From positions 1 to 64,000 of the forward strand of contig SDNP01000008.1 in NCBI GenBank assembly GCA_004524445.1: a stretch of DNA of 64,000 nt. The letters run 5' to 3'. This DNA is from Candidatus Thorarchaeota archaeon (GTDB taxonomy: Archaea; Asgardarchaeota; Thorarchaeia; Thorarchaeales; Thorarchaeaceae). The notes under the pieces were generated by a model. The model did not search any database. It was not told the DNA's origin and was given only the letters and a program-made list of their open reading frames with translations. How positions within the stretch are numbered: position 1 is the first letter of the stretch; each line of letters opens with the position of its first letter. Positions 36,732 to 64,000 of this stretch are shown one piece after another. A program made the translations under genes and the position numbers.

Positions 36732-38489
36732 TTAGCAATGACTTGCCACCCGTGAGAATCTGGCACATCCTCTTATCATCATCTCTGTTACTGCTTGACG
36801 AATTCTTGTTGCGTCTGTAAGACCAGCAATTTCTCGGTCACATATTCTTGTTACAGGCAACATTGGCAGGGCTTTCCTATCTAAGTGAACAGATGGGTCA
36901 TCGATATTTATGATCTCAATTGCAGAAGAGCTAATATCAAACAACTCTAAGACACCGACCAAAATATCCAAGGATGGACCGCAAAATAAGCAATGGTCGG
37001 ACATATAAAAGGCAATGCAGGAGTCCCGGCCACACTCTAAAGTCTCATCTTCCTTCCACAGGTCCAACTCGATAGCAATACGGGTTCCGAGAGAAGGTTT
37101 GCCTTCTACTCTATCTTCTACCCAAATTTCTCCCCCAATACTGTGAATAATCGTACGAACAAGGGTCAGACCTAATCCTCTTCCGCCGTTCCTACCTCCT
37201 AAAGACTGCGTTCTATTGAATATGATTCGCTTAAGACTATCAGGTATTCCTGGGCCTTGATCTTCAATCTCAATCCTAACTCTGTCTTTGAAAGTCTTCT
37301 CGTTTACTTCTACTCTGATATTCGTCGCAGTACTGGGATCATGAACAATCGCATTCTCAAGTACATTAAAAAAAACATCTTCCAGGTTCTCGTTTGCAAA
37401 GACCTCCACGCCGTCAATACTACCCTCAAGAGTTATTTCTATATCCTTGTGAACTATCTGGTCTTCTATATGTGAAACCACATTACGTATGCATGATGCT
37501 AGATTTACTGCTTCACGTTTGGGAGGGTGATCTCGAAGCTGATTGAGTTTGCGGAGATTGGATATCATTCTCGCTCCCCTCCTTATCTCCCAGTTCGCTT
37601 CTAGAAGCTTCGTCTTTGCGTCTTGGGGCAGTTTCACAGTTTCCAGAACATATCCGATGGAAAACAAAATACTCTGGTTCACATTATTCAAATCATGGGT
37701 CATTACTTCAGTCCACAGCGCTACTTGCTCTTGGGCAATATTCCTGCTTTCCTCTGCCGTTTTTCTGGCCGTAATATCGACAGCCAGAATATCAATGACC
37801 GGCTTCTGTTCTAAATCAAAATATAGGGCGGTCAAGCTAACCCAAACCGACTCATTATCAGAATTTACAAGCTCGACCTCAATATCCTGAATTTTCTTAC
37901 CCTGAAGCAATTCTCGGATGAGTTGAGACGTAATAGAGTTTTCATTGCCACCTGATCGCTTTATCAGAGGATCGAAGTGCCGTTTTAGAAGATCATCTCT
38001 TTTGTAACCCAATAGTTCAACTGCGGAGGCATTTATATCCTGAATGATCCCCCTCTTACTCAATCTAAAGCTCGGGACGAGGGAGTCGTATATTACGGTT
38101 TCATAATCGGACTTGGATTCTTGATAATCTCGCATGCCCCCACGGAGTTTGATTATGAAGCCATTGTTTGCGTTCAATGAAACAACGGAGCACTCTATAT
38201 CATAAGGCGTAGACGTGCCCTTATACCTAATCATCCTAGCGGCGAGGACATTATCTTTTGATCTGGCAAGATTGGAGAGAAAAGATGCGCCACCTTGGTC
38301 ATGTTTGATTTCCAAATCAATAACATCGAGAATTCTTTTTCCTACCAGTTCATCCCTGGGAACTTCAAGAAATCGCTCAGCAGCGTTATTACATGTGTCA
38401 ATGGTATCTCCATTAATTATCAAAAGGGGTTCATTTGAAAGGTTGAGAATTTTTTGTACGAAGGATTCGCTCTCAAGACTCCATTTCAT
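36732..38489 (-). CDS. PAS-PAS sensor histidine kinase with C-terminal thioredoxin-like CxxC domain
   Basis: H-box MTHDLNN; N-box NVLENA; DQGPGI; GRGLGL; tail FYMSDHCLFC...LPMLP. Confidence 0.88.
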   Translation of the reverse strand: MKWSLESESFVQKILNLSNEPLLIINGDTIDTCNNAAERFLEVPRDELVGKRILDVIDLEIKHDQGGASFLSNLARSKDNVLAARMIRYKGTSTPYDIECSVVSLNANNGFIIKLRGGMRDYQESKSDYETVIYDSLVPSFRLSKRGIIQDINASAVELLGYKRDDLLKRHFDPLIKRSGGNENSITSQLIRELLQGKKIQDIEVELVNSDNESVWVSLTALYFDLEQKPVIDILAVDITARKTAEESRNIAQEQVALWTEVMTHDLNNVNQSILFSIGYVLETVKLPQDAKTKLLEANWEIRRGARMISNLRKLNQLRDHPPKREAVNLASCIRNVVSHIEDQIVHKDIEITLEGSIDGVEVFANENLEDVFFNVLENAIVHDPSTATNIRVEVNEKTFKDRVRIEIEDQGPGIPDSLKRIIFNRTQSLGGRNGGRGLGLTLVRTIIHSIGGEIWVEDRVEGKPSLGTRIAIELDLWKEDETLECGRDSCIAFYMSDHCLFCGPSLDILVGVLELFDISSSAIEIINIDDPSVHLDRKALPMLPVTRICDREIAGLTDATRIRQAVTEMMIRGCARFSRVASHC

Positions 38490-38674
38490 TTCATGACAAC
38501 CCCTAGCTAGGACCAATCTCTACAGATGTAACCTGAAAAGGTGTTCAACGGGATTCCATCTTTGTTTCTAGTCCTATTCTTCCGCAGGTAATCTTTTCTG
38601 CAAAATCTATGGATATGATTTTTGCGTTAGGTCTATTGGTTTTCCTGACGCATGGATATGTTTATCATTACTCA

Positions 38675-39277
38675 ATAAATTGCATATGTGCTCAAGTATA
38701 CAAGTATAAAACCAAAGAGGATGAGCGTTAGGGAACCCATCAATCTAAGCGAATCAGATATCGAGAATCTTACAAAGGCGTTTCAAATCTTGTCAGGCCC
38801 CTCAAGACCTCGTATCATAGAGATTCTAGCTCAAGATGAGAATATCACCGTGAGCGGGATAGCTAAAGGAGTTAACCTCAGTATTAGTAGTGTTAGTCAT
38901 CAATTGAGTAAACTAAAGGAAAGAGGATTTGTGGGAGCCAAGAAAATAGGTCGAAAAGCAATCTATAGAATTGAAGATGAATGTATTCAGGCCATACTGA
39001 GGAGAGCCACCCCACATGTTAGATATCAGTGATACTGCGTGTCAGCACTGCGAAGCAGAGAGAGCTCAACAGCAGGAAATAGACTTCAGGGTCAAGTATG
39101 CCTTGGCACTAATTTCGGACATACCACTTATTGGTGGAACATTGATACAAGTATTCACATCAATAGCATATGTTCCTCCAGTCCTATTTCTGATTTCAAT
39201 ATTCTCTGCAGGTAGATGGATAATTCCCAATGACATTAAGAGCATCATCAGGGTTCATTTGGGCATAACTTTCCTCA
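38675..39277 (+). repeat. diverged direct copy of the operator-arsR-5'cadA segment (partner about 47321-47923)
   Basis: Long near-identical stretches, e.g. agaggatttgtgggagccaagaa, and ataactttcctca at the breakpoint. Confidence 0.9.
38721..39032 (+). CDS. ArsR/SmtB regulator, probably decaying paralog
   Basis: Copy of 47376..47678 with DPSRL changed to GPSRP; the partner's ATG reads AGG here. Confidence 0.7.
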   Translation: MSVREPINLSESDIENLTKAFQILSGPSRPRIIEILAQDENITVSGIAKGVNLSISSVSHQLSKLKERGFVGAKKIGRKAIYRIEDECIQAILRRATPHVRYQ

Positions 39278-39303
39278 GGCTTTCGGCCGCGAGCTCCGCT
39301 TGA
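39016..39303 (+). pseudogene. truncated heavy-metal P1B-ATPase (first ~87 codons)
   Basis: Matches the N-terminus of 47662..49584 up to HLGITFL, then unrelated sequence and a stop. Confidence 0.85.
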
Positions 39304-39682
39304 TGTAGCTGGGCCACTCACCTAGTACACTATTGTATGTGTCTTGGGCTATTTGATCTTCCACAGACTTCATGTTGGGATCAGCTATGAGATAATCAGA
39401 CAGGAATTGGACACTTTTGCTGGACAAATGAACTAGAAAAAGGAAGGTACTATGTTATTCCAGAAGGCGTACCTCTACGTCTTGCCGAATGATGGTCATA
39501 TCGCATAGAATCTTGCTCTTACATGAGAAAACATGAGTCTTGGGAGTTGTCAGATTGCAGCACTCTATGGTGAGCTGAATCGCATGTTGGAACCGGATGC
39601 CGATTCAGAGAGCGTCATCTACCTCAGCTCGGTGAGCTATGCGAGGAGAAAAAGCGAGAGTAACTGGTTTCTCAATCAATGG

Positions 39683-42199
39683 TTACTCTTCTTGTTCGCC
39701 CTTCTCGATGATCGGAATAAGCCCCTTCCTCTTTAGAGGTGCTGAGATTCTATTCCTCGCCTTTTCATTCTCTTCCTTGATCATGTCGATACCAATATCC
39801 TTGAGGCTCTGATTCAGCTCTTTCATTGTTCTTGCAAAGATGAGTCCCTCAGCAGCGGAGATCTCCTTCCATAGGAATCTCTCGGTGCTGATTCCTGCTC
39901 CTTCAAGCACCTTATGGTAGCGTTGGAACCTCTCATACGCGATAATATTTCCGCTGATGTAGTGACAGTCTGTGGGTCTGTGGCATGCACCCACCATGAC
40001 TGCTCCGGCGCCAAGTCTGAAGGCCTCCGCGACAAAATCCGTGTCCACCCTGCCGGAGCACATCACTCTGATGATCCGTGAATTGGGGGGATAGGTGAAC
40101 CTGCTTGTTCCTGCAAGATCAGACCCTCCATAACAGCACCAATTGCAGGCAAAGACCAGAATCTTTTCCTCGGCCTTGTCCTCCAGTGCTGCTCTGATCT
40201 GTGAGAAAATCATAGGGTCAGTGTAGTGCATCTGCTCAATAGCATCGTGGGGACAAGACGCAACACACGTGCCGCAACCATGACAATTGGCTACGTTGAC
40301 AACGGCAGCTTTACCGTCTATCGCTGTGATGGCAATGTAGGGGCATTTATCGACACAGATGCCACAGTCTCGCTCAAGATTCTTGCATCTCTCGGGGTTA
40401 ACAACGGCAACGATGGGTTCAATCTCGACAGTGTCTTTGGACAGAATGGTTGCAGCACGCGACGCTGCACCGCTGCCAGCTGATACTGAATAGGGTATAT
40501 CTTTGAGACCCTGGCAGGCACCGGACAGGGTGATTCCATCCACAGGTGTATCGAGGGGCTTGAGCTTCGGATGTGCCTCCATGAAGAATCCGTCAGCGCT
40601 TCTAGTGATATGGAGTTTCGAGCCAAGCTCCCCAGTCCCAAAGCTTGGCTCACCAGCAGTTGCTAGGATTAGCAGGTCGACCTCAACTTGGACCTCGCGT
40701 CCTAGCAGTATATCTTCAGAACGCACAATGAGATTCTTGGTTCTGGGGTCCTCGATGACCTCATATGGTCTGCCCTTTATGAAGGTGAAGCCCGCTTCTC
40801 TTCCTCTTGTGTAAAATTCCTCATATCCCTTCCCAGTAGTCCTTATGTCGATGTACCATATGAATATCTCAGTGTCTGGGTAGTGTTCCTTGATCAAAGT
40901 AGAATTCTTTAAAGTGTACATGCAGCAAAAGTTGGAGCAATACTCGTATTTATTGACATCGCGAGACCCCACACATTGGATGAAGCCCACGCGATGAGGG
41001 TGTTTACCATCAGACCTGCGAATTACTTCGCCTCCTGTGGGTCCTCCCGCACAAACGAGTCGCTCTACTTCAAGGGCGGTTATGACATTCTCGAATTTCC
41101 CGTAACCGTAATACCCTTCTTGCACAGCTTCAGATTCTCCTCCTCTGACAGGTTCGTACATGGAATGATAGCCCGTAGCCACGGTGATAGTTCCCACCTC
41201 AACTTCGATCTCTTCTGCTTCCTGTTCGAAGTCGATGGCTTGCCGTTCGCCGCAGACATCAACACACTTGTAACACTCGATACAATGGTCACGGTTTATT
41301 GTGAACACGAGAGGTACTGCTTGTGCGAAGGGTACAGAGATGGCCTTTCGTGTTCCGAGATTCTGTTCCCACGCGTTGGGGTACTCGATTGGGCAGACCT
41401 CAGCGCACTCGCCACAGCCGGTGCAGTTATCTTGGATGACGTACCGGGGATTCTTTCGAATTCTGACCTTGAAGTTGCCGACGTATCCATCTACATGTAA
41501 AATGTCCGCAAACGAGAGGATTTCGATGTTGGGGTGTCGTCCCACCTCGACCATCTTTGGCCCCTCGATGCAGATTGAACAGTCCAGTGTGGGGAAGGTC
41601 TTGTCGAGCTGAGCCATGTGACCACCAAGGCTCTCGTCATGTTCGACTAGATATGTCTTGTATCCCATATTGGCAAGGTCAAGAGCGGCATGGATTCCGG
41701 AGACTCCTCCTCCGATTACCATGGCTCTATCTGTCACAGGTACTTCGAACTTCTGCAAAGGCACGGTCAGTGCAGCCTTGACAACCGCCATTTTTATGAT
41801 TTCTTTCGCTTTTTGCAGAGAGTCCTCCGTTTCCTCGTGACACCATGAGCAGTGTTCTCTGATATTCGCCATAATAAAATTGAACGGATTCATTCCTGCC
41901 TCCGAAACCGTGACCCTAAAGGTGGGTTCGTGCATCCGAGGCGAACATGCGGCGACCACCACCTTGTTGAGATTGTGTTCCTTAATCCCCTCACGAATCT
42001 CCTTCTGACCAGGATCAGAACATGTGTATCGGTTCTGTTTTGCGTAGACAACCGAGTCCAGCGTTTTCACGTATTCTTCCAATGCGTCAATATCGAGAGT
42101 GCCAGCAATGTTGGAACCGCAATGACAGATGAAGACACCAATTCGGGGCTTTTCGGCTACGAGTGTCACGTGATTCTGTTCGGCCTGCGTGTCAGTCAA
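39683..42199 (-). CDS. hdrA: heterodisulfide reductase subunit A fused to MvhD
   Basis: GVFICHCG, ACSPRMHE, GGGVSG, DKTFPTLDC and QCVGSRD; C-terminal ACNWC...RVMCSGR...DCHY. Confidence 0.95.
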   Translation of the reverse strand: MTDTQAEQNHVTLVAEKPRIGVFICHCGSNIAGTLDIDALEEYVKTLDSVVYAKQNRYTCSDPGQKEIREGIKEHNLNKVVVAACSPRMHEPTFRVTVSEAGMNPFNFIMANIREHCSWCHEETEDSLQKAKEIIKMAVVKAALTVPLQKFEVPVTDRAMVIGGGVSGIHAALDLANMGYKTYLVEHDESLGGHMAQLDKTFPTLDCSICIEGPKMVEVGRHPNIEILSFADILHVDGYVGNFKVRIRKNPRYVIQDNCTGCGECAEVCPIEYPNAWEQNLGTRKAISVPFAQAVPLVFTINRDHCIECYKCVDVCGERQAIDFEQEAEEIEVEVGTITVATGYHSMYEPVRGGESEAVQEGYYGYGKFENVITALEVERLVCAGGPTGGEVIRRSDGKHPHRVGFIQCVGSRDVNKYEYCSNFCCMYTLKNSTLIKEHYPDTEIFIWYIDIRTTGKGYEEFYTRGREAGFTFIKGRPYEVIEDPRTKNLIVRSEDILLGREVQVEVDLLILATAGEPSFGTGELGSKLHITRSADGFFMEAHPKLKPLDTPVDGITLSGACQGLKDIPYSVSAGSGAASRAATILSKDTVEIEPIVAVVNPERCKNLERDCGICVDKCPYIAITAIDGKAAVVNVANCHGCGTCVASCPHDAIEQMHYTDPMIFSQIRAALEDKAEEKILVFACNWCCYGGSDLAGTSRFTYPPNSRIIRVMCSGRVDTDFVAEAFRLGAGAVMVGACHRPTDCHYISGNIIAYERFQRYHKVLEGAGISTERFLWKEISAAEGLIFARTMKELNQSLKDIGIDMIKEENEKARNRISAPLKRKGLIPIIEKGEQEE

Positions 42200-49592: not shown

Positions 49593-51206
49593 TTACTTGT
49601 ATGAATTCAAAGCATTCATCGATAACCTGAGGAAGCCAAACACGAGAAATATGGTTAGGACTGGAAGAAGGAATAACAACAAAACGCTCTCAGCGTAGTT
49701 AGATGCTACTACAGCAATAAGGACACCCAATCCTAGGTTAATCGCAGGAAAAGAGAAGGCGATAGGTACAGGCGGATTCTGCGGGTTGTTCGTAAAAACG
49801 GGGACGTATGCTCCTGTCATTACTCCAGTGGCTGCGAAAACTGCTATCATCGGTCCCGCGAGTGTAATTATAAATGCCGAACCCGGAGCTCTGAAGAAAT
49901 AGAGCAAGAAACCAAGAATCGGCAATGCCGATAATCCAATTTCGAGAAGACTCAGTGTGTACTTCGCTAGTACGATATCACTTGAACGGAATGGTGAAGC
50001 CTTCAAAAGGTAGATATTCTCCCTTTCATCAACGAATGCCAAGAGGGCCGGTAGTGAAACAAGCTGTGCAACAAGTGCCAGAACAAGGAGGAATGCAGGA
50101 GTCAAAGACTGGCTGAGTTCGGGAGGTAGCTGAAGAGGAGGAAGCCAGGTCGGCTGGAACAAATTAAGATAGATTGCGAAAGCTGAACCAATAATGACGT
50201 AGATGTACTTCCAAAACTGTATTGGGCTCCTCATCTTGCTCCAAAAATCCTTTAGTATTATCCATCCTAGAGGATCCTGAATGCTGGAATCAGAGAAATC
50301 AACATCCCCGCGTATTCTATTTGCAATCTTGCTTTCACTTCGTTGTCTTGTTACGGCACCAGCAAATACATCGTAGAACTGTCTGTCAATTAAGTTGACT
50401 AAGAAGAGAAATGCGATTGAAGCACCAATCAGGATTAACACTAGGAAATTAGAGGGAGAAAGCCCAGGTGCATGAACATAGCTCAGCTGCATCAGAAGTA
50501 AGCCGAATATGTTCGCAGGTATAGAGATCTGAATGAAAACATTGTCTGAAAGGAACGAGCTCGACGGAAGATACGCAACAATGATCAGTGCTGCTAATGT
50601 GAGATGACGTACTCGGGTCTGAAACATGGAATTCAATTTCAGACGGATATATGAAGCAATGCCACCAAGGAAATAGTTGGTTTCTAGGAACAAAATTGTT
50701 CCAATTACAAAAAAAAGGGCAGCATTAACGAGAATGAGGGCTGATTCAACCAGGGGTAGAAAAACAACCAATGCCAATAACACATATCCAATTTTTCGGA
50801 TCACCCGTCGGATATACCTACTGATGAATAGTTGATAAGGATGGATGGGGGCAGGCATCGCGATGCTTTCATCTTCTTTTTCCCATACTGAAGCAGGGCC
50901 AACGCCGACATATCCCGAAACAATCGAAGATACCGTTATGAAGCCAAGAGCCGCAAAGATATCCGAAGGTGAAATCAACTCTTCTATGGCTTCAGCCACC
51001 CCAACAAAAAGAGCGGAGAAACTGATCAGTGTTCCAAGAATACTCGTAATGATGAAACCACCAACAAACGTAATCAAATAGAAACCGAGCATTGACGGAG
51101 AAGTGAGAGTTCTCTTAAACTGATTCCAGAGCATTCTAAACTCGTTCATAATAAGTGTAGGTAGCTGCACTCTGGACATCACCTCCTCAAGTCTGTGGGA
51201 TTCCAC
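49593..51206 (-). CDS. ABC exporter permease
   Basis: About 12 TM; DERENIYLLKASP...IVLAK; overlaps the ABC ATPase gene. Confidence 0.75.
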   Translation of the reverse strand: MESHRLEEVMSRVQLPTLIMNEFRMLWNQFKRTLTSPSMLGFYLITFVGGFIITSILGTLISFSALFVGVAEAIEELISPSDIFAALGFITVSSIVSGYVGVGPASVWEKEDESIAMPAPIHPYQLFISRYIRRVIRKIGYVLLALVVFLPLVESALILVNAALFFVIGTILFLETNYFLGGIASYIRLKLNSMFQTRVRHLTLAALIIVAYLPSSSFLSDNVFIQISIPANIFGLLLMQLSYVHAPGLSPSNFLVLILIGASIAFLFLVNLIDRQFYDVFAGAVTRQRSESKIANRIRGDVDFSDSSIQDPLGWIILKDFWSKMRSPIQFWKYIYVIIGSAFAIYLNLFQPTWLPPLQLPPELSQSLTPAFLLVLALVAQLVSLPALLAFVDERENIYLLKASPFRSSDIVLAKYTLSLLEIGLSALPILGFLLYFFRAPGSAFIITLAGPMIAVFAATGVMTGAYVPVFTNNPQNPPVPIAFSFPAINLGLGVLIAVVASNYAESVLLLFLLPVLTIFLVFGFLRLSMNALNSYK

Positions 51207-52208: not shown

Positions 52209-53216
52209 TCACTCCCTCCGTGATAGCATCTTTCTAATTTTTGATAGCACTAGATAAGTCACTGGGACCTTTACAAGAGCTTGCTCCTCTGGAGCCGAAC
52301 TGGCAGGCGGCTCTTCAGAAATTTCAGTTGCAGCATGCTTGTTGTAAAAGTATGCAACAATCAGTATGATTGGCGTTGGAAACGAGATGTAAAAACCTAC
52401 CCCAAACAGGAATTCCAGTATCAATGAAAATACTTCGAAAATAAATACAGAACTTGCCAGTAGTGCCGAGAGAACAAGTCTACGCCTGGAAGCATTTCCT
52501 CTCTTGAATTCCTGCAAAGTATAGATGAAATATGTTAGGGGGAATAGCACAAATATCGACAGCCATGCCACGGGGAACATTCCTAGTCTATATTCGAATG
52601 ATATTCCTCCTCCTTGGCTAGAGTATCGCGTTTCAAACCACGCTACAAAACCTATTGCTGCATAAATCATGGCAATAGAAAATGTGTCAGGTCCAACTCC
52701 CATAGAATAGAACATGGTGTAGATTGGAGCAAACACTAGGGAAACAAAGAAAACTATGGGCCAAATGTTTCGTGAATTTTTCTGGGGACTGTGCTTTGAT
52801 CTAAAACGTCTTAGAACAGGTAATAATACCGCAAATATGAGTAGCATCGAACCATAGTTTGTCAAGAATCTAGAGGGGGAATCGGTATACCCACCTGGAT
52901 ACCAACCGTAGACTTGAGTTGGAACGATAATCCATAGAACGATGATGGTCAGGATATATACGTAGACTGCTAATTGGGCCATTTGGTCTTTGCTCTTTTC
53001 ATCATTCATTCTGTACTTGAAATACGCACTGGGTAGCGTGATGAGTGCAAGATTGACCAGCTGAATGGCGAGCTGAGAAACCAAGGAGGGATATCTTCCA
53101 TAAAATAGGCCTTCAATGATAATTGGAGCTGAGGCATGGTATGAAATATTGTATGGAATAAGGAGTAAAATAAGGACTATTCCTATGAAACTCAGCCAAT
53201 ACCTCCTATTGCTCAC
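52209..53216 (-). CDS. hypothetical multi-pass membrane protein
   Basis: 335 aa with about 8 hydrophobic segments; GGAG RBS. Confidence 0.7.
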   Translation of the reverse strand: MSNRRYWLSFIGIVLILLLIPYNISYHASAPIIIEGLFYGRYPSLVSQLAIQLVNLALITLPSAYFKYRMNDEKSKDQMAQLAVYVYILTIIVLWIIVPTQVYGWYPGGYTDSPSRFLTNYGSMLLIFAVLLPVLRRFRSKHSPQKNSRNIWPIVFFVSLVFAPIYTMFYSMGVGPDTFSIAMIYAAIGFVAWFETRYSSQGGGISFEYRLGMFPVAWLSIFVLFPLTYFIYTLQEFKRGNASRRRLVLSALLASSVFIFEVFSLILEFLFGVGFYISFPTPIILIVAYFYNKHAATEISEEPPASSAPEEQALVKVPVTYLVLSKIRKMLSRRE

Positions 53217-60125: not shown

Positions 60126-60581
60126 CTAGAAATTTGTTTCAGTATATCTAGGCTCAAGATCCTCAAACCATTCTGCAACTTTGGCTTCATCTACTCTGTC
60201 AGATGTTGGCATGTAGGGTTTGATATCGACCACAGGGGTTTCATCGAATGCATCAATTTGGTCGATGACAAGATGTTTCTTTTCTTCGTCAACAGACAGC
60301 AGATTTACGATAGACAGGGCAATGGGTGTGGGACGGTGGCTGGATCTTGTGGCAAATACACCTGATTCTTTTGCCTCTGGAATGTGTGGAGGCTTTGCTC
60401 TCAGATGATTTCTTGCTTCTTCATTGTCATTCTCCGTAAGCCACCACAGCACGACAAGATGAGAAAATCTGTCGAGATTTTGGACTCCTGTCCAATATTT
60501 GTCAAAGACTCTGATGGCGGTATAGTCATCTTCACGAACAATTTTCCCTATGGCTGTTGCTTTCATGTCTTCTTTTATCAT
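60126..60581 (-). CDS. tsaA: tRNA m6t6A37 methyltransferase TrmO/TsaA
   Basis: FSHLVVLWW, GVFATRS.HRP.PIALS and DETPVVDIKPY motifs. Confidence 0.88.
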   Translation of the reverse strand: MIKEDMKATAIGKIVREDDYTAIRVFDKYWTGVQNLDRFSHLVVLWWLTENDNEEARNHLRAKPPHIPEAKESGVFATRSSHRPTPIALSIVNLLSVDEEKKHLVIDQIDAFDETPVVDIKPYMPTSDRVDEAKVAEWFEDLEPRYTETNF

Positions 60582-60645: not shown

Positions 60646-62397
60646 TTATTCAGCTGCCATCATCATCAGTCTTACGATTTCCTGACGCATGTCCTGTTCA
60701 GGTACGTATCCCGCCAGTCTACGACTTCCCAATTGTATTGCGGGTAATGCCGGTAGGGCATCTTCTGAAATGCCTGCGTCTGGGTCTTCCACATCCACAA
60801 CTCTGATGGTCGACCTACTGATGCCCATATCATCCAGAACTGATGTTAGAGTGTCCAATACTGGGTCACAGAATACACAATGCTGGGATTTGTAAAATGT
60901 GATAGGCGGGATTTGTAGTTGTTCTTGCCATCGTGGCAGAACGAGAATAAACTTACTACCCTTTGATGAATCTCCTGGTATCCGGTCTTCCACCCAGACC
61001 CTTCCTCCGAGGTCTGAAACATATCTATCAACAACTGTCAAACCCAAACCTTTTCCTGGGGAGCCAGCCTCAGCAATACTTTCTCTCTTGAATACATGTG
61101 GCTTACGGTCATCAGGTATGCCGGGTCCTCGATCTGCGAATTCTAGACGTACTTCACGACCCATATCGACAATACTCGCATTAACATCGACTCGTACTTT
61201 CTTGCTCGGGTCATATATCATGGCATTGTGAAGAATATTGAAGAAAATACTCCAGAGAAACATATCGCCAAGGACTTCCAAAGACTCCTCTCCAATATTT
61301 GTGCTGATATCTAGGTCCTTCCATTCAAAATCGCGGTCGACCTCAGTTGCTGCCCTGTTGAAGTGTGTACTTACTCTTGTCTTAACTCGGTCAGGAGGAC
61401 TTCTTGCAAGTTTAAAGAGAACCTCCATATTGGCAATCATACGCGATGATCTTCGAATATCCCATGCCGTTTCGTTGATGAGTTCGAGTTCTTCTTCAGG
61501 GAGATCCAAAGACACTTTCAGATTTTCAAGTGCAAAGAGAGCGCTTTGATTAATAATATTCAAGTCACTTGTCATAAGCCCAAGATAGAGGTCTGCTCTC
61601 TCTCTTTCTTCTCTGAGTCGATCCTCAGCTAGCTTTCTCCTAGTGATGTCTACTGCCATTAGGCCTATCTCACGAGGCTTTTCAGAGCCCGGGGTAAGTG
61701 AACTAGAGGAGATGGAAGCCCAAATGGGACGCTTATCCGAGCGGACCATCTCCACTTCTAGGGCATTCACCGTCCGCCCTCTGGAAACTTCTGTCAAGAT
61801 GTCTCCAGCTGGGTCATATTCTTCCGTTTTCTCTAGGAAAAGGGTCGAAAAATTAGCCCCAATAAGCCTATCTGCCGTGTAACCAAAGAGTTCTTCTGCT
61901 GCTTTGTTTACCTGCTCGATTATACCTTCACGGTTCAATGTCAGGTAGGCAATGGGCGACAAGTCGTAAAGATTCGCAAATCTGTTTTCTAATTCAAGAA
62001 CAGTTTCCTCAAGAGCAATTTGTCCGGTTACATTATTTACAGAAATCAGAACAGCATCAGCACCATCGAAATTAACAATGCGGGGGTTGATTTCTACATG
62101 TAACAAGTCGCCATGTTTTGTCCTTAACCGGGTATTAAACGCTTCAACATCATCCGCGTCCGCAAGGGCATCTAGTAGGTTCCTATGGTGCTTACGGGAT
62201 AAAGAATCTACAAGATTTTCAAATGGCATGAAAATGAGGTCATCCTTCTGGTATCCTATCATTGCAGAGAAAACAGAATTTGCATCAACTATCTCGTTGT
62301 CTTGCAACACGACAATTCCATCGGTTACAATCTCGAGAATGTTATGTAGCCATTCAGTTTCCTTCTCATCATCTGGCAAAGATAGACCTCTTGTCAC
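60646..62397 (-). CDS. PAS-PAS histidine-kinase-like protein lacking the phospho-His, with C-terminal thioredoxin-like CxxC domain
   Basis: H-box reads MTSDLN; NILHNA, DRGPGI and GKGLGL intact; tail FYKSQHCVFC...LPALP. Confidence 0.85.
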   Translation of the reverse strand: MTRGLSLPDDEKETEWLHNILEIVTDGIVVLQDNEIVDANSVFSAMIGYQKDDLIFMPFENLVDSLSRKHHRNLLDALADADDVEAFNTRLRTKHGDLLHVEINPRIVNFDGADAVLISVNNVTGQIALEETVLELENRFANLYDLSPIAYLTLNREGIIEQVNKAAEELFGYTADRLIGANFSTLFLEKTEEYDPAGDILTEVSRGRTVNALEVEMVRSDKRPIWASISSSSLTPGSEKPREIGLMAVDITRRKLAEDRLREERERADLYLGLMTSDLNIINQSALFALENLKVSLDLPEEELELINETAWDIRRSSRMIANMEVLFKLARSPPDRVKTRVSTHFNRAATEVDRDFEWKDLDISTNIGEESLEVLGDMFLWSIFFNILHNAMIYDPSKKVRVDVNASIVDMGREVRLEFADRGPGIPDDRKPHVFKRESIAEAGSPGKGLGLTVVDRYVSDLGGRVWVEDRIPGDSSKGSKFILVLPRWQEQLQIPPITFYKSQHCVFCDPVLDTLTSVLDDMGISRSTIRVVDVEDPDAGISEDALPALPAIQLGSRRLAGYVPEQDMRQEIVRLMMMAAE

Positions 62398-62966: not shown

Positions 62967-63206
62967 CTATTCTTCCTTCAGGGAATAAACCAGCTCTTCG
63001 TTTTCATGACCTGTGACTTCAATTTGACCCCACCGCAGCATGCCCATAAGATTCCAGACAATCAAGTCTTTTGGATATTCCGTCCTTGAGGATAGCTGAC
63101 TGACTGTGGCAGCTCCTTCTGTCAACATTTCTTGGATTTTCCGTCTTTGTCTGCGCACTTCGCCGCGTTTCTGGTCGAAGAATTGTCGGAACTTGGTCAT
63201 TTCCAT
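62967..63206 (-). CDS. small winged-helix protein coupled to mvhD
   Basis: KIQEML..GAATVSQLS......KDLIVWNLMGMLRWGQI; overlaps the mvhD stop. Confidence 0.65.
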   Translation of the reverse strand: MEMTKFRQFFDQKRGEVRRQRRKIQEMLTEGAATVSQLSSRTEYPKDLIVWNLMGMLRWGQIEVTGHENEELVYSLKEE

Positions 63207-63646
63207 TCTCTCCTAATTGGTCCGAGCTCTCTCACTTGTTCTGTCAATTTATTGACTCCATCTGCAAAGACTTGTGCCTCAGAAGCCGAGGCCCATTGCA
63301 GCCTTACTCTTCGTGGATTCAATCCAGATTGCTCAATGGCCTTTTCCATCAATGCCCATCTGGCTCGAGCCTTTAAGTTTCCGTTTGTGTAATGACAATC
63401 GCCTGGGTGGCAGCCTGAAACCAACACACCATCGGCACCCATTTCTAGGGCAGATAGTATGAACTCAGGTGTGATACGCCCAGTACAATTCACTCGGATG
63501 ATCCGTGCGTTTGGGGCGTATTGTATTCGTGACGTGCCAGCAAGGTCCGCCCCAGCGTAGCTGCACCAATTACAACAGAACGCAACTATCTGTGGCTCCC
63601 ATTCCTTAGAATCCGACTGTGAAGGGGCTGTCTTCGCCTGTGTCAT
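63197..63646 (-). CDS. mvhD: hydrogenase iron-sulfur subunit MvhD
   Basis: FCCNWCSYAGADLAG, RVNCTGR, GCHPGDCHY and WASASE; TAATG overlap with the upstream hdrA. Confidence 0.93.
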   Translation of the reverse strand: MTQAKTAPSQSDSKEWEPQIVAFCCNWCSYAGADLAGTSRIQYAPNARIIRVNCTGRITPEFILSALEMGADGVLVSGCHPGDCHYTNGNLKARARWALMEKAIEQSGLNPRRVRLQWASASEAQVFADGVNKLTEQVRELGPIRREWK

Positions 63647-64000
63647 TACTTGGCACCTCCCTCTACAAGCTGTTCGGGGCAAAGATATGCTTCCACCATC
63701 GTCAATATCTGTTCATCGGTAGAGTGTCGCATTATTATCGCTCCACTTGGACATGCCGCAGCACAAGTACCACACCCGTGACATTTTGCCTCAGTCACTT
63801 TTGCGACTGCGGGTTCTTTTGTTTGATCAATAGCAATCGCCCCATATGGACAAGCTGAAACACAGGTATGGCATGAGGAACATAGGTCCTCAATGACATG
63901 TGAAACTGTAGATTCGATTTCCACCTCGCCTCGAGCCATAAGGGCAACAGCCTTTGCTGCCGCACCACTTGCATCAACAATAGATTCAGATGCACCTTTT
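63646..64000 (-). CDS. hdrA: HdrA C-terminal fragment (continues beyond the window)
   Basis: SIVDASGAAAKA...CSSCHTCVSACP...CHGCGTCAAACP...TDEQI. Confidence 0.85.
   Translation of the reverse strand, partial: KGASESIVDASGAAAKAVALMARGEVEIESTVSHVIEDLCSSCHTCVSACPYGAIAIDQTKEPAVAKVTEAKCHGCGTCAAACPSGAIIMRHSTDEQILTMVEAYLCPEQLVEGGAK

What the first reader, a model, noticed from the sequence alone, without database searches (positions are those of the whole stretch)
60646..62397. Second kinase-thioredoxin fusion is a pseudokinase (His replaced by Ser)
Seen: the H-box is GLMTSDLNIINQS (AGT codon at 61567-61569, minus strand) versus EVMTHDLNNVNQS in the paralog. The ATP-binding N, G1 and G2 boxes and the tail FYKSQHCVFC...LPALP are intact, and the ORF is uninterrupted. 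CAT to AGT needs two base changes, so a single sequencing error is unlikely. Established: His-less pseudokinases such as DivL act as allosteric or scaffold partners. Inference: an active/inactive pair that may heterodimerise, trans-phosphorylate or use Ser phosphorylation. Together with 36732..38489 it would form a redox-signalling system with no evident response regulator.
Basis: partly seen in the sequence, partly recalled or inferred. Interest (0 to 1): 0.72.

Follow-up and report, generated by a model that had tools for sequence, protein, structure and literature searches.

The report
Conserved His-less sensor kinase in Thorarchaeota
This gene encodes a sensor-kinase look-alike that has lost the histidine it would normally phosphorylate; the loss is old, is kept by selection across a whole class of Asgard archaea, and always occurs beside an intact sister kinase, so it is a genuine regulatory "pseudokinase" family not yet described.

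Summary
ORF 60646..62397(-) is a 583-aa PAS-PAS-DHp-CA protein with a C-terminal CxxC thioredoxin-fold tail. Ser277 (AGT, 61567-61569) sits where the paralog 36732..38516(-) and every other kinase of the genome has the phospho-acceptor His.

It is not a private mutation. Among 240 Trx-tailed kinases, almost all Thorarchaeota, the 120 His-less ones (S 102, N 14, Q 4; also T, K, R in genomes) form one clade. Ser codons are all AGY. dN/dS against the same-genus ortholog is 0.05.

The His-less clade also lost the +4 Asn of the HDxxN motif. In many members it lost the Mg-ATP Asn (N to Y/F) and G1 glycines, which are 100% kept in the His clade. The window's own protein still has N, G1 and G2. The CxxC and the Pro are invariant, but four further Cys invariant in the His clade are gone.

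In 22 of 22 genomes where both H-boxes could be read, a His-less copy has a His-bearing partner; eight single-copy genomes all have His. Ser phosphorylation is unlikely. Heterodimerisation is untested.

The scan noted this stretch once before (e1-5563698). It also followed up the paralog's tail (e1-5563697).

The parts
60646..62397 (-). His-less Trx-tailed sensor-kinase homolog (pseudo-histidine kinase), 583 aa
   Evidence: ORF; Pfam PAS_9, PAS and HATPase_c; orthologs
62038..62349 (-). PAS domain 1 (residues about 17-120)
   Evidence: Pfam PAS_3/PAS_8; coordinates
61633..61986 (-). PAS domain 2 (residues about 138-255)
   Evidence: Pfam PAS_9 7.9e-23 and PAS 2.4e-18
61399..61632 (-). DHp helical hairpin (residues 256-333); contains no histidine
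   Evidence: AF2 model m8290ff704610, helices 2-42 and 47-78; sequence; dN/dS 0.027
61567..61569 (-). Ser277 codon AGT at the phospho-acceptor position
   Evidence: the column is H in 120/120 of the sister clade
60928..61386 (-). CA (HATPase_c) domain with N box (Asn391 at 61225-61227), G1 DRGPG (61120-61134) and G2 GKGLGL (61039-61056)
   Evidence: Pfam HATPase_c 9.3e-18; PDB sequence hits to MprB, WalK and HK853; motifs
60649..60906 (-). Thioredoxin-fold tail with CVFC (60868-60879) and Pro552 (60742-60744)
   Evidence: AF2 model mf0e2be3cbf25, pLDDT 88, strand-helix-strand-strand-strand-helix; Foldseek top hits are thioredoxins, NrdH and glutaredoxins; no Pfam hit
36732..38516 (-). His-bearing paralog (MTHDLNNVNQS) with a six-Cys Trx tail; presumed active partner
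60126..60581 (-). TrmO_N-domain gene 64 nt downstream on the same strand; adjacency recurs in several genera
   Evidence: Pfam; synteny; gap

Best explanation
The gene encodes a functional pseudo-histidine kinase. It arose once, by duplication of a PAS-PAS-DHp-CA-thioredoxin-fold sensor kinase inside Thorarchaeota. After the duplication it lost the phospho-acceptor His, probably by CAY to AAY to AGY. It also lost the +4 Asn of the HDxxN motif and four of the six conserved tail cysteines.

It can therefore neither autophosphorylate on the canonical site nor act as a canonical kinase/phosphatase. Yet it keeps the whole fold, both PAS sensors and an invariant CxxC thioredoxin-like tail under strong purifying selection. 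It is never found without the His-bearing paralog.

The most likely mode of action is inferred, not shown: a non-catalytic signalling partner. It would read a PAS ligand and/or a thiol-redox state and modulate the active paralog, or compete for the paralog's downstream partner, through protein-protein contact. That contact could be a DHp heterodimer or a higher-order complex.

Shown: loss of His; single origin; selection; decay of catalytic motifs across the clade; strict co-occurrence; thioredoxin fold of the tail.

Inferred: the absence of activity, the partner, and the redox role.
For: - Ser277 sits at the His position. It aligns with His of the paralog and of six other kinases of the genome, all HD[LIV]xN.
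- The 120 His-less proteins form one clade: FastTree support 99, and IQ-TREE quick with the H-box column masked gives SH-aLRT 99.
- All 17 Ser codons read in genomes are AGY. The variants seen are N (AAC), K (AAG), R (AGG), T (ACA) and Q (CAA).
- dN/dS against the same-genus ortholog is 0.052 overall, 0.027 for DHp, 0.043 for CA and 0.053 for the tail, with dS about 1.
- Over the same 253 species pairs the His-less copies are as conserved as the His copies (52.9% against 51.6% identity).
- Catalytic decay is confined to the His-less clade. The N-box Asn is kept in 28/120 against 120/120; G1 DxGxG in 74/120 against 120/120; the +4 Asn in 9/120 against 115/120.
- CxxC and the Pro are 120/120 in both clades.
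- In 22 genomes with a His-less copy the partner's H-box could be read, and it is His in all of them. The G076 partner's H-box is masked (23 genomes counted apart from the window's own; 24 His-less rows with it). Eight single-copy genomes all have His.
- The pair lies 17-24 kb apart on one contig in three genera.
- The model of residues 255-583 (pLDDT 86) is a canonical DHp hairpin plus CA plus Trx fold. Its best PDB matches are HK853, WalK and, among others, DivL.
Against: - The window's own protein, and those of many genera, keep the N, G1 and G2 boxes. ATP binding, or even kinase activity towards another residue or protein, is therefore not excluded here.
- No interaction evidence of any kind was obtained.
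- Paralogous kinases usually evolve to avoid heterodimerising (general knowledge). The DHp regions of the two copies are only about 42% identical.
- Gene neighbourhood gives no clear functional partner.
- The sampling of the protein set is dominated by one genus (g12), which inflates the N-to-Y counts.
Confidence: 0.62

Rival explanations
1. Trans-kinase subunit. In lineages such as this one, where N, G1 and G2 are intact, the His-less protein still binds ATP and phosphorylates the His of the paralog within a heterodimer. It would act as a dedicated catalytic or regulatory subunit rather than an inert scaffold.
For: The N, G1 and G2 boxes are intact in the window protein and in genera g1, g3-g9, g11, g13 and g16. 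CA-domain dN/dS is 0.043. Co-occurrence with the His paralog is strict.
Against: In the best-sampled genus the Mg-ATP Asn is Tyr or Phe, and in G011 the N, G1 and G2 boxes are all degenerate, yet the gene is conserved there. A function common to the clade therefore cannot need ATP turnover. No heterodimer evidence exists.
Confidence: 0.2
2. Ser277 is a real phospho-acceptor. The protein autophosphorylates, or is phosphorylated, on Ser, as reported for His-less plant ethylene receptors and phytochromes (general knowledge).
For: Ser is the majority residue (102/120) and is preserved by synonymous AGT/AGC codons. The +1 acidic residue is kept (D/E 120/120).
Against: Orthologs carry N, Q, K or R, which cannot be phosphorylated. 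Of the Ser-bearing members, 76 of 102 lack the catalytic Asn, so Ser retention does not track kinase competence.
Confidence: 0.06
3. The conserved function lies in the CxxC thioredoxin-like tail, as a thiol-disulfide relay or reductase. The kinase-like body serves only as a PAS-regulated scaffold, acting independently of the His paralog.
For: The CxxC, the preceding His and the Pro are the only strictly invariant motifs in all 240 proteins. The tail has a Trx/NrdH-like fold. Standalone tail homologs of about 110 aa exist in the genome.
Against: The DHp is the most constrained part (dN/dS 0.027). Co-occurrence with the His paralog is strict. The tail lost four of six conserved Cys, which suggests reduced rather than principal chemistry.
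Confidence: 0.1
4. Decaying pseudogene or sequencing/assembly error.
For: None beyond the missing His.
Against: The ORF is intact. dN/dS is 0.05. About 120 intact orthologs are found across about a dozen genera. The two-step codon change is shared by all.
Confidence: 0.01

Closest known systems
DivL of Caulobacter crescentus (pseudo-histidine kinase; PDB 4q20; PMC4211667)
   Same: - A multi-PAS, DHp and CA protein in which the phospho-acceptor His is replaced throughout the orthologs (Tyr in DivL).
- The HK fold and most boxes are retained.
- It works without kinase activity, as a partner or sensor inside a kinase network (PMC4211667).
- DivL appears among the structural matches of the model (rank 29, TMt 0.68).
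   Different: - Independent origin: the clade is nested among Thorarchaeota His-bearing kinases.
- The replacement is Ser/Asn/Gln/Thr/Lys/Arg rather than Tyr.
- It carries a C-terminal CxxC thioredoxin-fold domain.
- It always sits beside its own direct paralog.
- It is archaeal.
- The partner and the phospho-receiver are unknown.
His-bearing Trx-tailed PAS kinases of Thorarchaeota (window 36732..38516; scan note e1-5563697)
   Same: Same architecture and length, with 30-45% identity. Same HCxFC...LP tail motifs. Same taxa, and often the same contig.
   Different: These keep His, the +4 Asn, and the N, G1 and G2 boxes in 99-100% of members, and six invariant tail Cys. The His-less clade lost His, the +4 Asn and four Cys, and has relaxed ATP-site residues.
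Small archaeal/bacterial thioredoxins, NrdH and glutaredoxins (e.g. PDB 6mos, 4hs1, 1h75, 3ic4)
   Same: A strand-helix-strand-strand-strand-helix fold, with CxxC at the start of helix 1 and a Pro before strand 3. Foldseek probability 1.0, TM 0.55-0.69.
   Different: - No Pfam thioredoxin or glutaredoxin model matches, even at E<=10.
- The motif is H-C-[VIL]-F-C rather than WCGPC or CPYC.
- It is fused to a kinase C-terminus.
- The family is tiny: 38 representative clusters in 1.84 billion proteins.
Other reported histidine pseudokinases (Streptomyces PsmA, PMC12963549; ChrS pseudokinase variant, PMC9491836; one Lokiarchaeum protein mentioned in passing in PMC10343646)
   Same: HK-like proteins that lack the catalytic His and are proposed or shown to have regulatory roles (titles and abstracts; text).
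   Different: No sequence or architectural relation to these was established here. None is described with a thioredoxin-fold tail or as a class-wide archaeal pair.

Membership tests
Class I (HisKA-type) sensor histidine kinase | Phospho-acceptor His in the H-box on DHp helix 1 | tested here: not met
   Ser277 at the aligned position. The DHp of the window protein has no His.
Class I (HisKA-type) sensor histidine kinase | DHp four-helix-bundle hairpin followed by a CA alpha/beta sandwich | tested here: met
   AF2 model, pLDDT 86, helices 2-42 and 47-78, then the CA fold. Foldseek hits HK853 and WalK at E 1e-14. The dimer itself was not modelled.
Class I (HisKA-type) sensor histidine kinase | N box Asn, G1 DxGxG and G2 GxGxG of the ATP site | tested here: met
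   All are present in the window protein. They are not conserved in its clade: Asn in 28/120 and G1 in 74/120.
Class I (HisKA-type) sensor histidine kinase | E/DxxT/N phosphatase motif after the His (general knowledge; T264 in HK853) | tested here: not met
   The +4 residue is Ile here and M/I/L in most of the clade. It is Asn in 115/120 of the His clade.
Class I (HisKA-type) sensor histidine kinase | Autophosphorylation and phosphotransfer to a receiver domain | not testable with these tools
   Needs biochemistry. The genome has four REC domains, none adjacent.
Pseudo-histidine kinases (functional class, DivL-like) | HK fold kept, acceptor His replaced in all orthologs, gene under purifying selection | tested here: met
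Pseudo-histidine kinases (functional class, DivL-like) | Lack of kinase activity; function through binding a kinase or a phospho-receiver | not testable with these tools
   Only indirect evidence: decay of catalytic residues in the clade and strict co-occurrence with the His paralog.
Pseudo-histidine kinases (functional class, DivL-like) | Common descent with DivL itself | tested here: not met
   The clade is nested within Thorarchaeota His-bearing Trx-tailed kinases. It is an analog, not an ortholog.
Thioredoxin-fold redox domain (Trx/Grx/NrdH) | Strand-helix-strand plus strand-strand-helix fold, with CxxC at the helix 1 N-terminus | tested here: met
   Model pLDDT 88. All top Foldseek PDB hits are Trx, Grx or NrdH. 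CxxC is kept in 240/240.
Thioredoxin-fold redox domain (Trx/Grx/NrdH) | Pro preceding strand 3 (cis-Pro loop) | tested here: met
   Pro552 is invariant. The cis geometry itself is not testable here.
Thioredoxin-fold redox domain (Trx/Grx/NrdH) | Match to a curated Trx/Grx sequence family | tested here: not met
   No Pfam hit at E<=10 for either tail.
Thioredoxin-fold redox domain (Trx/Grx/NrdH) | Thiol-disulfide exchange activity | not testable with these tools
   Needs a redox assay.
GHKL protein Ser kinases (SpoIIAB/RsbW, PDK/BCKDK type) | Obligatory Mg-ATP site (N-box Asn) used to phosphorylate Ser of a substrate | tested here: not met
   The Asn is present in the window protein but is replaced by Y, F, H or S in 92 of 120 clade members. 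No homology to these families beyond the GHKL fold was seen.

The most novel reading that the evidence does not exclude
Thorarchaeota carry an obligate active/pseudo sensor-kinase pair. The His-less subunit, through its PAS domains and its CxxC thioredoxin-like tail, would gate the His-bearing subunit in a heterodimer according to the cellular thiol or electron-carrier state. This would be a prokaryotic, Asgard-lineage counterpart of eukaryotic kinase/pseudokinase pairs, and the first defined archaeal pseudo-histidine-kinase system.
Probability: 0.25. Interest if true: 0.75.

Novelty: new variant of a known kind. Interest (0 to 1): 0.56.

Why it matters
Pseudo-histidine kinases are known from only a few bacterial cases, with DivL the paradigm, and none has been defined in archaea. 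Here a whole clade, spanning about a dozen genera of an Asgard class, shows the full signature of a repurposed kinase:
- a single ancient loss of the acceptor His;
- loss of the phosphatase Asn;
- progressive decay of the ATP site in some lineages;
- undiminished purifying selection;
- obligate coexistence with the intact paralog.

Both copies also carry an undescribed, lineage-restricted thioredoxin-fold CxxC tail. The pair therefore gives a natural 'before and after' comparison for how a two-component kinase becomes a non-catalytic regulator. It also gives a concrete, testable entry into redox signalling in the closest prokaryotic relatives of eukaryotes.

Tried and rejected
- A first motif regex was mis-specified and matched nothing. 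It was replaced by alignment.
Neighbourhoods were read instead from genome stretches with tblastn of the window's proteins.
- Pfam on the isolated tails gave nothing even at E<=10. The fold assignment therefore rests on the model and Foldseek.
- The careful IQ-TREE search did not finish in time. The quick tree (SH-aLRT only) was used together with FastTree.
- Identity to the query alone does not separate the clades. The top G082 hit, 52% identical over the C-terminal part, has His. H-box residues were therefore read directly from DNA.
- A functional link to the upstream HdrA/MvhD genes was considered. The arrangement recurs in g1, g4 and g9 but not in g12, g6 or g13, so it is kept only as a note.
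- An alternative acceptor His was sought. The window protein's DHp has no His and the clade's DHp has no conserved one. The clade-specific invariant His345 lies in the first CA helix, not a plausible acceptor site.
- Literature searches found no description of HK-thioredoxin fusions or of this clade.
- Homo- versus heterodimer prediction could not be run, because the structure tool takes a single chain.

Full report
**1. What is at the coordinates**

The ORF 60646..62397(-) is open and 583 aa long. Pfam finds two PAS regions and HATPase_c, but no HisKA model. The paralog 36732..38516(-) has the same architecture and aligns end to end, at 30% identity and E 4e-81.

In that alignment GLMT-S-DLNIINQS faces EVMT-H-DLNNVNQS. 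Ser277 is AGT at 61567-61569 on the minus strand. Six further kinases of the same genome all carry H-D-[LIV]-x-N at this place and none has the CxxC tail.

N box FFNILHNAMIYD, G1 DRGPG, G2 GKGLGL, the tail CVFC and Pro552 are present.

**2. Organism and relatives**

The window is contig C16 of a 2.79-Mb, 64-contig assembly. Its relatives are annotated almost only as Thorarchaeota, an Asgard group.

Searching the C-terminal 329 residues returned 293 homologs, with the best 120 listed at 48-91% identity. The same search with the paralog returned 255, again with the best 120 listed.

**3. The His is missing in a whole clade**

In the joint alignment of 240 Trx-tailed proteins, the H-box column is H in 120, S in 102, N in 14 and Q in 4. 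Genome DNA adds T, K and R.

All His-less proteins form one clade:
- FastTree support is 99, with no His-bearing protein inside.
- An IQ-TREE quick tree of 56 genome-derived sequences, with the H-box column masked, gives SH-aLRT 99.

The clade sits among the His-bearing proteins, so the loss followed a duplication inside the class.

All 17 Ser codons read from genomes are AGY. This fits a single CAY to AAY to AGY path, and the N, K, R and T variants are each one step away.

**4. Selection**

| Region | dN/dS against the same-genus ortholog (G076, 89% identical) |
|---|---|
| Whole gene | 0.052 |
| PAS | 0.066 |
| DHp | 0.027 |
| CA | 0.043 |
| Tail | 0.053 |

dS is about 1.

Over the same 253 pairs of genomes, the His-less proteins are as conserved as their His-bearing partners: 52.9% against 51.6% identity in the C-terminal 329 residues. 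The gene is not decaying.

**5. Catalytic residues decay only in the His-less clade**

| Feature | His clade | His-less clade |
|---|---|---|
| N-box Asn (EnvZ N347 / HK853 N380 equivalent, general knowledge) | 120/120 | 28/120 (Y 63, F 25, H 4) |
| G1 DxGxG | 120/120 | 74/120 |
| G2 | 119/120 | 112/120 |

The N-to-Y change is characteristic of the heavily sampled genus g12. G011 has N, G1 and G2 all degenerate. Most other genera, including the window's, keep them.

The residue four positions after the His matches T264 of HK853 in the E/DxxT/N phosphatase motif (general knowledge; HK853 is the best structural match). It is Asn in 115/120 of the His clade. In the His-less clade it is M, I or L, with Asn in only 9.

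Both the kinase/phosphotransfer and the phosphatase chemistries therefore look dispensable for the clade's common function. For the window's own protein, ATP binding remains possible.

**6. No substitute His**

The window protein has no His between residues 255 and 340. The clade has no conserved His in the DHp.

One clade-specific invariant His does exist at position 345: 120/120 here, mostly Y or F in the His clade. It lies in the first CA helix. It remains unexplained.

**7. Ser phosphorylation is unlikely**

N, Q, K and R occur at the position. In addition, 76 of 102 Ser-bearing proteins lack the Mg-ATP Asn.

**8. The tail**

An AF2 model of residues 492-583 has pLDDT 88 and a strand-helix-strand-strand-strand-helix order, with the CxxC at the start of helix 1. 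Its Foldseek PDB matches are all thioredoxins, NrdH and glutaredoxins, at probability 1.0 and TM 0.55-0.69.

No Pfam model matches. Against 1.84 billion representatives, only 38 clusters match. These are kinase tails of about 580-aa proteins and standalone proteins of about 110 aa. Three of the standalone proteins lie in this genome.

H-C-x-F-C and the Pro are invariant in all 240 proteins. The His clade has four more invariant Cys: CGRxxC before strand 1, one after strand 3, and one near the C-terminus. The His-less clade has lost these, except for eight basal members.

**8b. The C-terminal model**

The model of residues 255-583 has pLDDT 86. It shows a canonical DHp hairpin with Ser277 in the middle of helix 1, a CA domain with a disordered ATP lid, and then the Trx fold. 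It matches HK853, WalK, ZraS, CpxA and also DivL.

**9. The pair**

- Of 87 genomes of the class, 77 have a match.
- I read the H-box from DNA in 31 genomes, apart from the window's own.
- Every genome with a His-less copy also has a His-bearing one. That is 22 of 22 where the partner's H-box could be read; the G076 partner's H-box is masked.
- Eight genomes with a single copy (G003, G005, G014, G022, G074, G077-G079) all have His.
- The two genes lie 17-24 kb apart on the same contig in g1, g12 and one g6 genome. They are 34-110 kb apart in others.

This pattern fits a dependence of the pseudokinase on the active paralog. It does not show physical interaction.

**10. Neighbourhood**

- A TrmO_N-domain gene lies 64 nt downstream on the same strand. 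This adjacency recurs in g1, g12, g6 and g4.
- Upstream, after a 569-nt gap, lie a 79-aa protein with no Pfam match, MvhD, and an HdrA-like gene. That arrangement recurs in g1, g9 and g4 only.
- The paralog likewise lies near an HdrA-MvhD fusion and an ArsR regulator.
- The genome has about ten HATPase_c kinase-like genes and four receiver domains, none near either gene.

**11. Known comparators**

DivL is a multi-PAS pseudo-histidine kinase. It has Tyr for His throughout its orthologs, retains the boxes, binds ATP weakly and has no kinase activity. It acts by binding DivK~P and controlling CckA (PMC4211667). The present clade works like that class but is of independent origin.

The literature gave the following:
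- A survey of Asgard kinases mentions one Lokiarchaeum pseudo-kinase only in passing (PMC10343646).
- The archaeal two-component census has no HK-thioredoxin architecture (PMC5847659).
- No other paper on Thorarchaeota kinases turned up.

**12. Earlier notes of this scan**

The scan had noted this stretch once before (e1-5563698). It had also followed up the paralog's thioredoxin-fold tail (e1-5563697). My own fold test agrees with that follow-up.

**13. Verdict**

This is a real, ancient, selected pseudo-histidine-kinase family, paired with its active paralog and carrying an undescribed thioredoxin-fold tail.

The mechanism is inferred. The candidates are modulation of the paralog or its pathway, or trans-kinase action in lineages with an intact ATP site. 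Ser phosphorylation is disfavoured.

I class it as a new variant of a known kind, of moderate to good interest.

Noticed in passing
window 36732-37016 (-) and His-clade homologs (e.g. P0123, P0129, P0189, P0216): The tail of the His-bearing clade has six invariant Cys: CGRxxC, CxxC, one after strand 3, and one near the C-terminus. This pattern suggests a metal or Fe-S site or extra disulfides. The His-less clade keeps only the CxxC, except eight basal members such as P0105.
   Followed up: partly
window 61363-61365 (-), residue His345: This His is invariant (120/120) in the His-less clade but is mostly Tyr or Phe in the His clade. It lies at the start of the first CA helix in the model. Its role is unknown.
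   Followed up: no
window 60126-60581 (-): A TrmO_N-domain-only gene (151 aa) lies 64 nt downstream of the pseudokinase on the same strand. The adjacency recurs in at least four genera.
   Followed up: partly
window 62967-63999 (-) and 38688-42199: Both Trx-tailed kinase genes lie next to a small wHTH-like or ArsR gene and an HdrA/MvhD module. The two HdrA paralogs are about 48% identical. This may be an old segmental duplication or a functional link to disulfide and electron-carrier metabolism. It is conserved only in some genera.
   Followed up: partly
L010:1438-1767 (+) = G000 C41; also G000 C19:89670-89894 and C6:57495-57740: Three standalone proteins of about 110 aa are homologous to the kinase tail (FYxSxxCxFC ... 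LPTI). The whole family has only 38 representative clusters in 1.84 billion proteins.
   Followed up: partly
G067:C224:3553-4519: In one related genome the His-less ortholog is split, with an in-frame TGA and two overlapping pieces. This may be a frameshift, a pseudogene or an assembly error.
   Followed up: no
window 36732-38516 (-) and L060 (G076:C14): In this genus the His-bearing partner sits on a very long branch (about 1.1 changes per site) and is only about 35% identical to the pseudokinase, against about 42% in other genera.
   Followed up: no
window 49593-51206 (-) and 52209-53216 (-): Two large ORFs (537 and 335 aa) flanking an ABC ATPase gene have no Pfam match at E<=1e-5.
   Followed up: no
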